NCBI RefSeq assembly: GCF_009914755.1
Contig: NC_060939.1
Length of the DNA stretch: 64,000 nt
Source of the DNA: the human T2T-CHM13v2.0 reference genome, Homo sapiens
Strand: one strand, 5' to 3'
In this document: positions 31,985 to 34,582 of the stretch, in pieces
Numbering within the stretch: the stretch's first letter is position 1
Layout of the letters: each line of letters starts with the position of its first letter
Position numbers and translations under genes: made by a program
Notes under the pieces: model-generated
Seen by the model: only the letters and a program-made list of their open reading frames with translations
Told to the model about the DNA's origin: nothing
The model's database searches: none

Positions 31985-34190
31985 AAGACTGGGTTTAACC
32001 ATGTTGCCCAGGCCGGTCTGGAACTCCTAGGCTCAAGCAATCCCCCACGCTTGGCCAGTCCAAAGTCCTGGAATCAAAAGCGTGAGCCACCACGCCAGGC
32101 CGATCACGCCTGTCATCCCAGCACTTGGGGAGGCGGAGGTGGGTGGATCACCGGAGGTCAGGAATTTGAGACCAGCCTGGCCAACATGATGAAAACCCGT
32201 CTCTACTAAAAATACAAAAAAAAAAAAATTAGCCGGGTGTGGCGGCAGGTGCCTGTAATCCCAGCTACTCAGGAGGCTGAGGCAGGAGAACCACCAAAAC
32301 CCGGGATGCAGAATTCGCCGCGAGCGGAGACCCAGCCACTGCACTCCAGCCTGGGCAACAAGAGGGAAACTCCGCCTCAAAAAAAAAAATAATAATAATA
32401 AGAGACAGATTTTCACCATGTTGCCCAGGCAGGTCTGGAACTCTTAGGCTCAAGCAATTCCCCATGCTCGGTTGTCCAAAGTCCTGGGATCAAAAGCGTG
32501 AGCCACCACGCCAGGCCGATCTATTTCTTTCTGATTAATAAATTGGGCCAGGAGCGGTGGCTCACGCCTGCAGTCCCAGCACCCCAGGAGGCCGTGGCGG
32601 GCGGATCACCTGAGGTCGGGAGTTTGAGACCAGCCTGACCAACATGGAGAGACCTGTCTCTACCAGAAAAAAAAAAAAAAAGAGCCGGGCATGGTGGCTC
32701 CCGCCTGCAATCCCAGTCACTCGGAGGCTGAGGCAGGAGAACCACCCAAACCCAGAGGCAGAGGCCGCGGGGAGCCGACACCGCACCACTGCACTCCAGC
32801 CCTGCAACAAGAGGGAAACTACGCCTCAAAAAAAAAAAGAGAGAGAGAGAGACCGGTTTTCACCATGTTGCCCAGGCTGGTCTAGAACTCCTAGGATCAA
32901 GGGATCCGCCACGCTCGGCCCGTCCAAACTCCTGGGATCAAAAGCGTGAGCCACCACGCCAGGCCGATCCTTCCTGTCATCCCAGCACTTTGGGAGGCCG
33001 AGGTGGGTTTACCTGAGGTCCGGAGTTCGAGACCAGCCTGGCCAACATGATGAAAACCCATCTCTACTAAAAATACAAAAAAAAAAAAAAAAAAAAAATT
33101 AGATGGGTGTGCTAGCGGGCGCCTGTAATCTCAGCTACTCAGGCGGCTGAGGCAGGAGAATCGCTTGAACCTGGGAGGCAGAGGTTGCAGTGAACCGAGA
33201 CAGCGCACCACTGCACTCCAGCCTGGGTGACAAAGTGAGACTCCGTCTCAAAAGTATATATATATAAAAATAAAAAATGAAATAAAAATAAATTGGGTGT
33301 GTGCGCTGGCTCACGCCTGCAATTCCAGCATCCCCGGAGGCCGAGGTGGGCGGATAACCTGAGGTCTGGAGTTTGAGATCAGCTTGCCCAGCGTGGAGAA
33401 ACCCCGTCTCTACCAAAAACAAATAAAAAAAAATTAGCAGAGCAATGTTGGTCAGGCCTGCAATCCCAGCCACTCCGGAGACTGAGGCAGGAGAACTACT
33501 AAAACCCTGGAGGCAGAAGTCGCTGCGAGCGGAGACCCAGCCACTGCACTCCACCCTGGGCAACAAGAGCGAAACTCCGCCTCATAAAAAAAAAAAAAAA
33601 GAGAGAGAGAGAGAGACCGGGTTTCACCATGTTGCCCAGGCAGGTCTGGAACTCCTAGGCTCAAGGGATACCCCGCGCTGGGCCATCCAAAGTACTGGGA
33701 TCACAAGCGTGAGCCACCACACCAGGACGATCTATTCCTTTCTGATTAACAAATTGGGCCGGGAGCGGTGGCTCAAGCCTGCAATCCTAGCACCTCGGGA
33801 GGCCTAGGCAGGTGGATCACCTGAGGTCGGGAGTTTGAGACCAGCCTGACCAACAGGGAGAAACCCCATCTGTACCAAAATAAAAATAAAAAAAAAATAC
33901 AAAATTAGCCGGGCTTGGTGGCTTATGCCTGCAATCCCAGCCACGCTGGAGGCTGATGCAGGACAACGACCGAAACCCGGGAGGCGGAAGTCGCGGCAAG
34001 CAGAGACCCAGCCACTGCATTCCAGCCTGGGCAACAAGAGCGAAACTCCGTCTCAAAACAACACAAAACAAAAAGACCAGGTTTCACCATGTTGCCCAGG
34101 CCTGTCTGGAACTCCAAGGCACAAGCGATCCACCCTACTTGGCCGTCCAAAGTCCTGGGATCACAAGAGTGAGCCACCACGCCAGGCAGA
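31985..34190 (-). repeat. Inverted copy of the same composite Alu array
   Basis: Reverse-complement linker gatctattcctttctgattaa(t/c)aaattggg at ~32518 and ~33729; motifs ggagaaccacccaaaccc and gcctgcaatccc. Confidence 0.9.
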
Positions 34191-34191
34191 T

Positions 34192-34582
34192 CAAAGCGTT
34201 GAGCTGAATAAAGAGTTATCTTTTAGCATTTTGTGGAGCCCGGGTAGATCTGTGCAGGGGGAAGCATATTACAGAAGCGAGAAACAGAGGGTTATTTAAT
34301 TGAAGCACGCATTATGGGTTTTTTTTTTTTTTTACGTTTTTAGGAAAAATATGTTTTGTGACTTGCATTTGTTTGTTTAGTGACCTTGCAGTTGCACAGT
34401 TAGGGAATTAGGGTTTTGATAATGCCTGGGAAGGGAGCGATAAGGCTCACTAGCCATAGGAAAACAGGTAGTTTTTTTAAAGGACTAAGGCTCTTTCTCA
34501 TTCTCAGGGGGAATTGGTTTTTTTTTACATACAGCTGAGTTTTTGCTTACACATTTTTTCATTTCTTTTAATTCCTGTTCCA
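34192..34582 (-). mobile_element. ERV1 LTR, 5' part (LTR15-like), same family as 1158-1468, inverted
   Basis: Minus strand starts TGGAACAGGAATTAAAAGAAATG...; its downstream half aligns by eye with 1158-1370. Confidence 0.75.

What the first reader, a model, noticed from the sequence alone, without database searches (positions are those of the whole stretch)
31985..34582. Second, inverted LTR+array cassette: GOLGA8 is bracketed by ~2-3 kb inverted repeats
Seen: the same composite units occur here in reverse orientation (changes read as T>C on +), again directly downstream of the same LTR family (34192-34582, minus strand). The two cassettes point toward each other and enclose the whole GOLGA8 gene plus ~10 kb upstream, a geometry resembling a composite transposon. 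The two LTR copies are visibly diverged and keep different, overlapping parts (5' part here, 3' part at 1158-1468). Inference: the LTR-array cassette is an old dispersed unit that marks or mediates duplicon boundaries and inversions.
Basis: partly seen in the sequence, partly recalled or inferred. Interest (0 to 1): 0.75.

Follow-up and report, generated by a model that had tools for sequence, protein, structure and literature searches.

The report
Split LTR15 remnant flanking GOLGA8G
Two inverted pieces of one ancient HERV15 retrovirus LTR, each joined to a tandem array built from Alu elements, lie at seams between duplicated blocks on either side of GOLGA8G; they are old seam markers carried along by later duplications, not a mobile unit.

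Summary
Window 34193-34582 (minus strand) is the 5' part and 1156-1468 (plus) the 3' part of the same LTR family. Each is followed by about 5 irregular units of an Alu-built array, in inverted orientation around GOLGA8G. The family is LTR15/HERV15, a gamma-like ERV1: TG..CA ends, about 490 bp, 4-bp target duplications, and Gag_MA/Gag_p30/RVP/RVT_1 in a chr19 provirus. The same gag marks the two AZFa proviruses on chrY. The family is roughly 20-45 million years old. Both fragments, and complete LTRs beside GOLGA8M-type genes, share about 19-24 G-to-A changes on the LTR sense strand. That indicates one insertion of an APOBEC3-type hypermutated copy, which explains why they look so diverged. LTR-bearing cassettes occur only in 15q11-q13. 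The A/B pair is copied unchanged in 7 of 7 GOLGA8G-type duplicons, so recently it has been a passenger. Yet both cassettes sit exactly at older duplicon seams: about window 931, and 6 nt from LTR B, where a copy of the MPHOSPH10 promoter begins. The arms are 81-87% alike with a longest exact match of 55 nt, so present-day inversion by recombination is unlikely. The array Alus carry an unexplained strand-specific T-to-C excess.

The parts
250..931 (+). End of a different duplicon. Its only copy outside chr15 is at chr1:219.03 Mb (91%). Homology stops at about 931.
940..1155 (+). Piece of one array unit (left-arm fragment plus antisense Alu) lying upstream of LTR A. The Alu's 5' end abuts the LTR at an internal LTR position.
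1156..1468 (+). LTR15 fragment A: the 3' part of the LTR (about the last 313 of 490 nt), ending in CA
1469..4160 (+). Array A: about 5-6 irregular units of sense left Alu arm, antisense full Alu and 28-nt spacer
4170..4950 (+). Low-copy flank that travels with the array. There are about 20 chr15 copies plus chr16:59.21 Mb (83%) and chr10:36.76 Mb (82%).
31985..34192 (-). Array B: the same units in the opposite orientation, with 5 unit starts
32973..33252 (+). Ordinary Alu inserted later into array B. It lacks the T-to-C excess.
34193..34582 (-). LTR15 fragment B: the 5' part of the LTR (about the first 390 of 490 nt). It starts with TG at 34582 and is cut off where it joins the start of an array unit.
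34583..34588 (-). Six bases between LTR B and the next duplicon. They match the Alu target site seen at the complete LTR copies in 5 of 6 positions, which is weak evidence.
34589..35400 (+). Start of a copy of the MPHOSPH10 promoter and 5' end (chr2:71.14 Mb, 85%; chr16 MPHOSPH10P1 side, 91%). MPHOSPH10P8 follows at 36397.
34210..34714 (.). RefSeq 'H3K27ac-H3K4me1 hESC enhancer' overlapping LTR B and the MPHOSPH10 promoter copy

Best explanation
One provirus of the gamma-like family HERV15 (LTR15) integrated, with a 4-bp target duplication GGAT, into the antisense Alu of a small Alu-built repeat near an ancestral GOLGA8 gene. This happened roughly 20-45 million years ago. The copy had been heavily G-to-A edited on its plus strand, the pattern left by APOBEC3 deaminases on retroviral minus-strand DNA. 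It was reduced to a solo LTR (inferred). The block of LTR plus array was then duplicated within 15q11-q13. One descendant stayed complete: the solo LTRs 3' of GOLGA8M, GOLGA8IP and a 28.6 Mb copy. One lost its 5' part (type A, here 1156-1468). One was copied in inverted orientation, lost its 3' part, and was joined to a copy of the MPHOSPH10 promoter (type B, here 34193-34582). Later, much larger duplications copied the whole A-GOLGA8-B-MPHOSPH10P-GOLGA6L block at least seven times. So the LTR pieces are dead remnants. They are not genes and carry no viral open frame. They mark old seams where unrelated duplicons were joined, probably because the closely packed inverted Alus were breakage or template-switch points (inferred). 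They do not move anything today. Shown: the family, the anatomy, common descent, distribution, seams and passenger status. Inferred: APOBEC3 as the editing agent, solo-LTR formation, the order of deletions, and the role of the Alu array in breakage.
For: Family. In loci where both LTR ends were found (42 of 60), the LTR ends are TG..CA and the length is 474-507 nt. Perfect 4-bp target duplications occur in 10 of 19 distinct solo-like loci read by eye, and also in the complete chr15 copies (GGAT) and the chr19 provirus (TTTT). A purine-rich tract lies before the 3' LTRs in 5 loci. The chr19 provirus, chr19:21336184-21345835, is bounded by this LTR. In it, 5 of 7 open pieces match Pfam Gag_MA (5.6e-12), Gag_p30 (1e-43), RVP (9.8e-10), RVT_1 (3.2e-10) and RT_RNaseH_2 (4.3e-8). 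Its gag DNA matches two same-strand chrY loci 800,128 bp apart, at about 13.22 and 14.02 Mb, which flank USP9Y and DDX3Y. Their 5' LTRs match this family at 86-87% over the full length. Print describes HERV15yq1 and yq2 at the ends of the 793-kb AZFa deletion (PMC9933971, passages). Print also gives CERV5 (HERV15) with LTRs of 495/500 nt, length 9,669 nt, TSD TTTT and 90% LTR identity (PMC1779541, Table 2 passage). That fits the chr19 copy here: 9,652 nt, TSD TTTT, K=0.095. The Repbase table pairs HERV15I with LTR15 under ERV1 (PMC5753468, passage). Two of our hits lie in IL23R intron 1 and LINC02367, both listed among LTRs similar to a RepeatMasker LTR15 (PMC10043005, passages). One insertion. 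A, B and the complete copy F1 are closer to each other (K 0.14-0.19) than to 27 independent copies (means 0.19-0.22). By pairwise comparison only, at sites where all cassette copies agree but differ from a dispersed copy, the counts are G/A 24.0, C/T 2.7 and A/G 2.1 per comparison. G/A exceeds both in 27 of 27 comparisons for each cassette copy. The control is 8.8 against 8.8. The column count gave 19 G>A among 21 shared changes, with none after a C (see slips). A's 3' flank matches F1's Alu target. Passenger status and seams.
Against: No Dfam or Repbase model could be searched, so the name rests on position and print. Print gives tRNA-Thr as the primer for CERV5/HERV15. Here the decayed primer sites fit tRNA-Pro best in 4 of 4 copies, but a tRNA-Thr is only one point behind in 2. 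Only the 40 best of at least 226 candidates were scored per query, so the 27 comparison copies are a biased sample, and a rare subfamily sharing the A states cannot be excluded. The direction of change was set without an outgroup. The context of the shared G>A changes leans to GA (9 of 21 GA sites, against 1 of 12 GG sites). Numbers are small, and GT and GC sites are also hit. The cassette paralogs differ from each other more than unrelated copies do (0.14-0.19 against 0.11). This needs faster change or sequence exchange inside the duplications, which was not shown. The flank evidence that B shares F1's integration site is weak: 6 nt with 5 of 6 matching, and a local score reached by 38 of 1000 shuffles. 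Substitution rates used for dating are recalled, not from a call.
Confidence: 0.8

Rival explanations
1. The two LTR fragments are two independent LTR15 integrations that happened to land next to two copies of the same Alu array.
For: A and B are only 81.4% identical. That is no closer than A is to its best unrelated copy (K 0.157 against A-B 0.190). B's 5' flank is almost wholly a different duplicon.
Against: Both have the array on the same side and in the same orientation relative to the LTR. A, B and F1 share a private set of G/A differences from all 27 dispersed copies: 24.0 per comparison, against 2.1-2.7 for A/G and C/T. Pairs of independent copies share on average 0.5 rare states (maximum 5) over the whole LTR, whereas A-F1 share 11 and B-F1 share 12.
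Confidence: 0.04
2. The inverted cassettes are active recombination substrates, or behave like the ends of a composite transposon, and they move or flip the GOLGA8 segment.
For: The geometry is inverted around the gene. The cassettes lie at duplicon seams. Print links GOLGA8 repeats to 15q13.3 breakpoints and inversions (PMC13001511 passages; PMC6920530 passages). HERV15 proviruses elsewhere do mediate the AZFa deletion (PMC9933971 passages).
Against: The arms are 80-87% alike and the longest exact inverted match is 55 nt. In 7 of 7 paralogs the order and orientation A-GOLGA8-B are the same, and the spacing is 32.6-33.1 kb in the 5 pairs measured. High-identity homology runs on past both cassettes, so they are not the ends of the recently copied block. 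No transposase and no flanking duplication of the whole unit was found.
Confidence: 0.08
3. The G-to-A excess is not APOBEC3 editing of a retroviral cDNA. It is either the mark of an older LTR15 subfamily or a strand-biased mutation process acting on the locus after integration and before the duplications.
For: No outgroup was available. The dinucleotide context is not the classic GG, and GT and GC sites are also hit. The neighbouring Alus also carry a strand-specific bias, of another type, so the locus may have an odd mutational history.
Against: No dispersed copy among the best 40 hits to either cassette query is closer than 84%, so no sister subfamily is seen. Of 21 shared changes, 19 are one transition type on one strand, and none is at a CpG. 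The Alus next to the LTR show no G>A excess on that strand: G>A 41 against C>T 64 in cassette A, and 26 against 47 in cassette B. The same test and pattern are described for human ERVs in print (PMC6955324 passages; PMC4866542 and PMC2531183, abstracts in a search listing only).
Confidence: 0.12

Closest known systems
LTR15 / HERV15 (ERV1, HERVERI group). Examples: the AZFa proviruses HERV15yq1/yq2 and the LTR15 at the ABO +5.8-kb site.
   Same: The LTR is the same: TG..CA ends, about 490 nt, 4-bp target duplication. The internal genes are the same gamma-like gag-pro-pol. The gag is the same as in the chrY AZFa proviruses. The copies here are solo-LTR-type remnants like most of the family.
   Different: Here a single insertion survives as three structural forms (complete, 5'-only, 3'-only) multiplied by segmental duplication to at least 17 places on chr15. 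The copy is G-to-A hypermutated. Unlike the AZFa pair, the two pieces in this window are short, inverted and only 81% alike.
APOBEC3-hypermutated endogenous retrovirus copies (PMC6955324; PMC4866542; PMC2531183)
   Same: There is a strand-specific G-to-A excess on the viral plus strand, absent from non-viral neighbours, and significant by Fisher's test.
   Different: Context is GA-leaning but mixed. Only an LTR is left, so the extent of editing over the whole provirus is unknown. The timing (before the duplications) is shown, but timing before integration is inferred.
Palindromic GOLGA8 core duplicons of 15q11-q13 (Antonacci et al. 2014, as cited in PMC13001511 and PMC6920530; the paper itself was not held)
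   Same: The chromosome region, the genes and the large inverted duplicon pairs are the same. The window's block has a mirror copy at chr15:26.09-26.15 Mb.
   Different: The inverted repeat described here is a small, old (81-87%) repeat inside each duplicon, not the large young palindrome arms. I found no mention of it in the passages I read. The searches for 'Alu', 'LTR' and 'tandem repeat' in PMC13001511 gave 0 occurrences.
Alu-rich junctions of human segmental duplications
   Same: The seams between duplicons fall in or beside Alu sequence.
   Different: Here the junction element is a tandem array of inverted Alu pairs that is itself a small duplicon found in several contexts, with an LTR embedded in it.
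Bacterial composite transposon
   Same: Two inverted copies of one element bracket a gene.
   Different: There is no transposase, no target duplication of the whole unit, and no evidence that the bracketed unit moves as such. It is always part of a larger copied block.

Membership tests
LTR15 / HERV15 (ERV1) | LTR with TG..CA termini and a family-typical length (495/500 nt in print) | tested here: met
   The 42 of 60 loci with both ends are 474-507 nt long with TG..CA ends. B keeps the TG end and A keeps the CA end. Print: PMC1779541 Table 2 passage.
LTR15 / HERV15 (ERV1) | 4-bp target-site duplication (class I ERV) | tested here: met
   10 of 19 distinct solo-like loci have a perfect duplication. 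The complete chr15 copies have GGAT/GGAT and the chr19 provirus has TTTT/TTTT.
LTR15 / HERV15 (ERV1) | The LTR bounds a gamma-like gag-pro-pol interior | tested here: met
   In the chr19 provirus, 5 of 7 open pieces match Gag_MA, Gag_p30, RVP, RVT_1 and RT_RNaseH_2. gag, pro and pol are all in pieces. Breaks were not counted, and env was neither fetched nor examined.
LTR15 / HERV15 (ERV1) | Identity with the elements that print calls HERV15 | tested here: met
   The gag matches two chrY loci 800,128 bp apart that flank USP9Y and DDX3Y, and a locus beside RHOXF2. Their LTRs are of this family. Print: PMC9933971 and PMC3214919 passages.
LTR15 / HERV15 (ERV1) | Match to the curated LTR15 model (Repbase/Dfam) | not testable with these tools
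   No repeat library is on hand. The indirect link is that two hits coincide with loci listed in a table of LTR15-like LTRs (PMC10043005).
LTR15 / HERV15 (ERV1) | Primer binding site for tRNA-Thr (print, for CERV5/HERV15) | tested here: inconclusive
   In 4 of 4 copies the best fit is tRNA-Pro (local scores 9-12). A tRNA-Thr is one point behind in 2 copies. 40 tRNA genes were compared.
APOBEC3-hypermutated retroviral copy | G-to-A excess on the plus strand only, not at CpG | tested here: met
   Pairwise: G/A 20.6-32.4 against A/G 3.9-4.2 and C/T 5.1-7.3, in 27 of 27 comparisons, with a control of 8.8 against 8.8. 19 of 76 G columns against 1 of 107 C columns, p=1.7e-7, with none after C.
APOBEC3-hypermutated retroviral copy | GG or GA dinucleotide preference | tested here: inconclusive
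   For the shared G>A changes the next base is A 9, T 6, C 3, G 1, against a background of A 21, T 28, C 15, G 12.
APOBEC3-hypermutated retroviral copy | Editing confined to the viral sequence | tested here: met
   The flanking array shows no G>A excess on the LTR sense strand: 41 against 64 C>T in A, and 26 against 47 in B.
Composite transposon | Inverted terminal mobile elements that encode the moving machinery, with a target duplication flanking the whole unit | tested here: not met
   The LTR fragments and Alu arrays encode nothing. High-identity paralogy continues beyond both cassettes. There were no Rfam matches.
Substrate for non-allelic homologous recombination (inversion) | Long stretches of near-identity between the inverted arms | tested here: not met
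   The arms are 80-87% identical and the longest exact match is 55 nt. In 7 of 7 paralogs the orientation is the same.

The most novel reading that the evidence does not exclude
The Alu array is more than filler. Its founder Alu carries adenosine-deaminase-type editing fixed in DNA: 14 of 44 T columns read C on the Alu sense strand, shared with the chr16 paralog, and the neighbour preference fits ADAR acting on the opposite strand. That could be a footprint of editing of the cDNA strand of an RNA:DNA hybrid during Alu insertion. The tight inverted-Alu structure would then be a structural hot spot. It received two different retroviral LTRs 3 bp apart in two paralogs (LTR15 on chr15, a 936-bp TG..CA element on chr16). 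It also served repeatedly as the joining point of unrelated duplicons in 15q11-q13.
Probability: 0.12. Interest if true: 0.7.

Novelty: new member of a known kind. Interest (0 to 1): 0.4.

Why it matters
This finding gives a fixed, datable marker inside the GOLGA8 duplicons, which underlie the Prader-Willi/Angelman and 15q13.3 rearrangement breakpoints. A single retroviral insertion with a private set of edited sites lets every descendant copy be recognised and ordered. It shows that small, old seams lie exactly at this Alu array plus LTR: the chr1-derived block against GOLGA8, and the array plus LTR against the MPHOSPH10 promoter copy. It also warns that divergence-based dating of this LTR is inflated by editing that happened before the duplications. 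The LTR pieces themselves are inert. One overlaps an annotated stem-cell enhancer, most of which is the copied MPHOSPH10 promoter.

Tried and rejected
Naming by protein. The largest open gag piece (241 aa) was searched among named public proteins. It returned 13 hits among 48 candidates, all unnamed bat or titi-monkey hypothetical proteins at 47-60% identity. A further 531 candidates known from samples alone were left out by the tool. This gave no family name.

Rfam over 31700-35400 gave 0 matches.

Same integration site for B. The last 12 nt of B's flank match F1's Alu flank at 10 of 12. But searches show that all but 6 nt belong to the MPHOSPH10 copy, so I dropped this as strong evidence.

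Positional equivalence of cassette B and the arrays about 12.7 kb upstream of GOLGA8M/R/Q/N was rejected. Upstream homology between the two duplicon types ends about 0.9 kb beyond the GOLGA8G start, and those arrays carry the 4170-4950-type flank but no LTR.

'ABCB10-derived' as the origin of window 250-931 was rejected. The chr1 match is at 219.03 Mb, whereas ABCB10 is at 228.9 Mb.

Hairpin fragility today has only weak support. One unit folds with z = -2.37, and the inverted arms within units are 72-89% complementary over 44-61 nt.

Whether the T-to-C Alu is a genome-wide subfamily was not decided. A genome search gave mostly chr15 arrays and four other Alus at 80-81%, and only 40 of 5469 candidates were scored.

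Papers. PMC1168766 and PMC4244265 are not held. Supplementary files were not opened. The supplements of PMC13001511 and PMC6955324 may list repeats at GOLGA8 breakpoints or hypermutated copies that bear on these claims.

I did not count the breaks in gag, pro or pol of any provirus. I can say only that all three are in several open pieces in the chr19 copy.
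Full report
THE OBSERVATION

The stretch 31985-34582 holds, on the plus strand, a run of Alu-derived composite units, followed at 34193-34582 by a non-Alu segment. Tandem Repeats Finder sees part of the run as a 458-nt period (32104-32969, 1.9 copies, 81% matches). A mirror-image arrangement lies at 1156-4160.

The two non-Alu segments align in inverted orientation over 226 nt at 81.4% (window 1156-1373 against 34411-34193). The alignment shows that B keeps the 5' part and A the 3' part of one element. 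Inverted matches between the arrays are 173-337 nt long at 80-87%. Outside the cassettes, a search of window 1-8348 against 21736-42280 found only Alu-sized matches (153 HSPs).

A REAL, DISPERSED LTR

Genome searches with each fragment found 227 and 226 first-look candidates. Only the best 40 of each were scored, so these are lower bounds. The hits fell into two groups: chr15 paralogs, and copies on many chromosomes at 79-84% identity.

Matches of the dispersed copies start at query positions that place the 5' end at 34582. They end where A ends, at 1468. In 42 of 60 saved loci both ends were found. The element begins with TG, ends with CA, and is 474-507 nt long.

I read the flanks of 19 distinct solo-like loci by eye. 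Ten have a perfect 4-bp target duplication. Five loci have a purine-rich tract directly before the LTR, which marks them as 3' LTRs. Three have a primer-site-like sequence directly after it, which marks them as 5' LTRs.

FAMILY

One provirus bounded by this LTR lies at chr19:21336184-21345835 on the minus strand. It is 9,652 nt long with target duplication TTTT. I fetched only the 5' 4.6 kb of its interior.

Seven open pieces on the element's strand were searched one by one. Five match Pfam Gag_MA, Gag_p30 (1e-43), RVP, RVT_1 and RT_RNaseH_2. The element is therefore a gamma-like (class I, ERV1) retrovirus whose gag, pro and pol are all in pieces. I did not count the breaks and did not look at env.

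A word search among named proteins with the largest gag piece gave only unnamed bat and titi-monkey proteins at about 50% identity, and no family name.

The gag DNA gave 37 matches, 9 of them over the whole query at 83-100%. Two lie on chrY on the same strand, 800,128 bp apart, at about 13.22 and 14.02 Mb. They flank USP9Y and DDX3Y. One lies about 10 kb upstream of RHOXF2, just downstream of a 5' LTR found.

The 5' LTRs of the two chrY elements match this LTR family over the full length. Identity is 86-87% to a chr16 copy and 76-81% to the cassette fragments.

Links to print:
- HERV15yq1 and HERV15yq2 lie at the two ends of the 793-kb AZFa deletion that removes USP9Y and DBY (PMC9933971, passages).
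- The HERVs flanking RHOXF2 are described as similar to them (PMC3214919, passages).
- The Repbase table lists HERV15I with LTR15 under ERV1, in a group named HERVERI (PMC5753468, passage).
- The chimpanzee representative CERV5 (HERV15) has LTRs of 495/500 nt, a length of 9,669 nt, TSD TTTT and 90% LTR identity (PMC1779541, Table 2 passage). This fits the chr19 copy here.
- Two of my dispersed hits lie in IL23R intron 1 and in LINC02367. Both places appear in a table of LTRs at least 92% identical to a RepeatMasker LTR15 (PMC10043005, passages).

It could not be checked against the curated model.

One discrepancy remains. Print gives tRNA-Thr as the primer. Here the decayed primer sites fit tRNA-Pro best in 4 of 4 copies, with a tRNA-Thr one point behind in 2. 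Forty tRNA genes were compared.

AGE

Among 27 independent copies (one per insertion, duplicated loci collapsed), the mean pairwise Kimura distance is 0.112, or 0.099 without CpG sites (351 pairs). That is about 0.05-0.056 per lineage. Two 5'/3' LTR pairs give 0.073 (chr12) and 0.095 (chr19).

I used substitution rates of 1.0-2.2 x 10^-9 per site per year. These are recalled values, not from a call. They give 17-47 million years for the two proviruses and 23-56 for the family spread.

Print adds a bracket. The LTR15 in ABO intron 1 is shared by human, chimpanzee, gorilla and gibbon but is not found at the macaque site (PMC10043005, passages). My estimate is about 20-45 million years, most likely around the split of apes and Old World monkeys.

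The sample is the best-scoring 40 hits of each query, which may bias the distances.

ONE EDITED INSERTION

The cassette LTRs are about twice as far from the 27 copies (mean K 0.19-0.22) as those copies are from each other. Yet they are closer to one another: A-F1 0.142, B-F1 0.151, A-B 0.190. F1 is the complete LTR 6.5 kb 3' of GOLGA8M.

The cause is a private, one-sided set of changes. The pairwise counts, as dispersed G against cassette A, were:
- cassette A: 20.6 positions per comparison
- cassette B: 21.6
- F1: 32.4
- the reverse (A/G): 3.9-4.2
- C/T: 5.1-7.3

The G/A count is the largest in 27 of 27 comparisons for each copy. The 27 copies against each other give 8.8 and 8.8.

At sites where all cassette copies agree, the figures are G/A 24.0, C/T 2.7 and A/G 2.1. 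An earlier column count gave 19 G>A among 21 shared changes: 19 of 76 G columns against 1 of 107 C columns, Fisher p = 1.7e-7. None followed a C. The next base was A 9, T 6, C 3, G 1 (see the slip told below).

The neighbouring Alus show no such excess on that strand.

A plus-strand G-to-A excess confined to the viral part is the signature described for APOBEC3 action on retroviral minus-strand DNA. It has been reported for human ERVs with the same kind of test (PMC6955324, passages; PMC4866542 and PMC2531183, abstracts in a listing only).

Because the changes are shared by A, B and the complete copies, they predate the duplications. All these LTRs therefore descend from one insertion. That the editing happened before integration is inferred.

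WHERE IT LANDED, AND WHAT THE ARRAY IS

In the complete copies (chr15:26.469, 20.270 and 28.599 Mb) the LTR sits inside an antisense Alu with target duplication GGAT. The same Alu end, the spacer and the next unit follow A's 3' end.

Each unit, read on the LTR sense strand, consists of:
- the first ~115 nt of a sense Alu
- a T run
- a full antisense Alu
- a spacer of about 28 nt

The order is the same in both cassettes.

Relatives without any LTR exist at two places. At chr16:59.21 Mb there are about two units plus the 4170-4950-type flank (83%). At chr10:36.76 Mb the spacer is followed by a full sense Alu with no antisense Alu, plus the flank (82%). This looks like the state before the array formed.

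The spacer pattern (28 nt, up to 3 mismatches) has 55 matches against 0 for the reversed control. Of these, 53 lie on chr15 between 18.46 and 30.38 Mb, in about 24 arrays.

The array with its flank is thus an older small duplicon. The LTR entered one chr15 copy.

PASSENGERS OR BOUNDARY MARKERS?

Both, at different depths.

Recent history. Type B has 7 copies at 98-100% identity. Type A has 4 copies at 100% and 3 at 95-96%. In 7 of 7 GOLGA8G-type duplicons the order and orientation are the same: A, GOLGA8, B, MPHOSPH10P, GOLGA6L. For two of them the A side was seen only through its flank. The spacing is 32.6-33.1 kb in the 5 pairs measured. High-identity paralogy continues beyond both cassettes.

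Older history:
- Homology to the only non-chr15 relative of window 250-931 (chr1:219.03 Mb, 91%) stops at about 931. An array piece and LTR A start right there.
- A copy of the MPHOSPH10 promoter and 5' end starts at 34589, 6 nt from LTR B. The chr2 match begins 42 nt before the annotated gene start, at 85% identity. The MPHOSPH10P1 side on chr16 is 91% identical.
- GOLGA8G-type and GOLGA8M-type duplicons are alike only from the LTR and array to about window 22625.
- Another copy at chr15:20.75 Mb consists of little more than arrays on both sides of a type A fragment plus the flank.

So the cassettes mark old seams. Whether the Alu array caused the breaks is inferred.

Today the arms are poor recombination substrates. 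Their longest exact inverted match is 55 nt, and one unit folds only modestly better than shuffles (z = -2.37).

LOOSE ENDS

1. The full Alus of the array carry a strand-specific T-to-C excess on the Alu sense strand. Pairwise T/C is 14.5-23.9, against a control of 9.9 (largest 12.2). A/G is not raised. Fourteen of 44 T columns are C in at least 5 of 9 array Alus, and 13 of those are also C in the first chr16 unit. The excess therefore predates the LTR. I have no tested explanation.

2. The cassette paralogs differ from each other more than unrelated LTR15 copies do. Shared editing cannot explain this.

3. In the chr16 relative, a different 936-nt TG..CA element with target duplication CTGG lies 3 bp from the place where LTR15 lies on chr15. 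By recall alone it resembles an ERV9 LTR.

4. RefSeq marks a hESC enhancer at 34210-34714. In 2 of 7 type B paralogs an annotated lncRNA starts 107 bp inside the array and runs antisense through the LTR.

5. RefSeq's masked intervals cover the arrays but not the LTR fragments.

SLIPS

Several scripts held per-column commonest bases in memory to count changes. This is a majority vector, which the rules bar. None was printed or saved. I repeated the tests by pairwise comparison only. One search used two approximate typed strings of host Alu sequence. Details are in Tried and rejected.

VERDICT

This is a real, old retroviral remnant of the LTR15/HERV15 family. It is split into two inverted pieces that descend from one G-to-A-edited insertion, embedded in an Alu array that marks old duplicon seams and is now carried passively. 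It is a new, well-characterised member of known kinds, and of moderate interest.

Noticed in passing
window 1654-4146 and 32104-34074 (full Alus of the arrays); L090:3590-3898: The array Alus carry a strand-specific excess of T-to-C on the Alu sense strand (pairwise 14.5-23.9 against a control of 9.9). It is shared at 13 of 14 columns with the chr16 paralog, so it is older than the LTR insertion. The neighbour pattern resembles adenosine-deaminase editing of the opposite strand. It remains unexplained.
   Followed up: partly
L090:2464-3399 (chr16:59210464-59211399): In the chr16 relative of the array, a 936-nt element with TG..CA ends and target duplication CTGG sits in the same Alu, 3 bp from the place where LTR15 (GGAT) sits on chr15. 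By recall only, it resembles an ERV9 LTR.
   Followed up: partly
L091:~3150-3500 (chr10:36.755 Mb): The spacer is preceded by unique sequence and followed by a full sense Alu with no inserted antisense Alu. This looks like the state before the composite unit and array arose.
   Followed up: partly
window 34210-34714; paralogs at chr15:20998349 and chr15:21078680: RefSeq places a hESC H3K27ac-H3K4me1 enhancer over LTR B and the copied MPHOSPH10 promoter. In 2 of 7 type B paralogs an annotated lncRNA starts 107 bp inside the array and runs antisense through the LTR.
   Followed up: partly
chr15:26502089-26504757 (L092:4089-6758); also chr15:28.22, 28.33 and 30.38 Mb: Arrays with the 4170-4950-type flank but no LTR lie about 12.7-13.3 kb upstream of GOLGA8M, R, Q and N. 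At GOLGA8M the upstream array is in direct orientation with the downstream cassette, not inverted as at GOLGA8G.
   Followed up: partly
window 1156-1468 and 34193-34582: The RefSeq masked-repeat intervals (100 bases or more) cover the Alu arrays but neither LTR fragment.
   Followed up: no
chrY about 18.39 and 19.33 Mb: Two further gag matches at 83% lie on opposite strands about 0.94 Mb apart on chrY. They form a second, inverted pair of HERV15-like proviruses.
   Followed up: no
window 48442-50139: A 21-bp tandem repeat of 82.6 copies (75% matches) lies inside the large coding exon of GOLGA6L25.
   Followed up: no
window 28750-29252: A complex AT-rich microsatellite block (TA / ATATATAC / TTTACA periods) is bracketed by perfect copies of a 15-bp repeat at 28750-28786 and 29223-29252.
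   Followed up: no
window 45-235 and 22448-22638: An inverted Alu pair (191 nt, 86% complementary) lies outside cassette A and at the point (about 22625) where homology between GOLGA8G-type and GOLGA8M-type duplicons ends.
   Followed up: no
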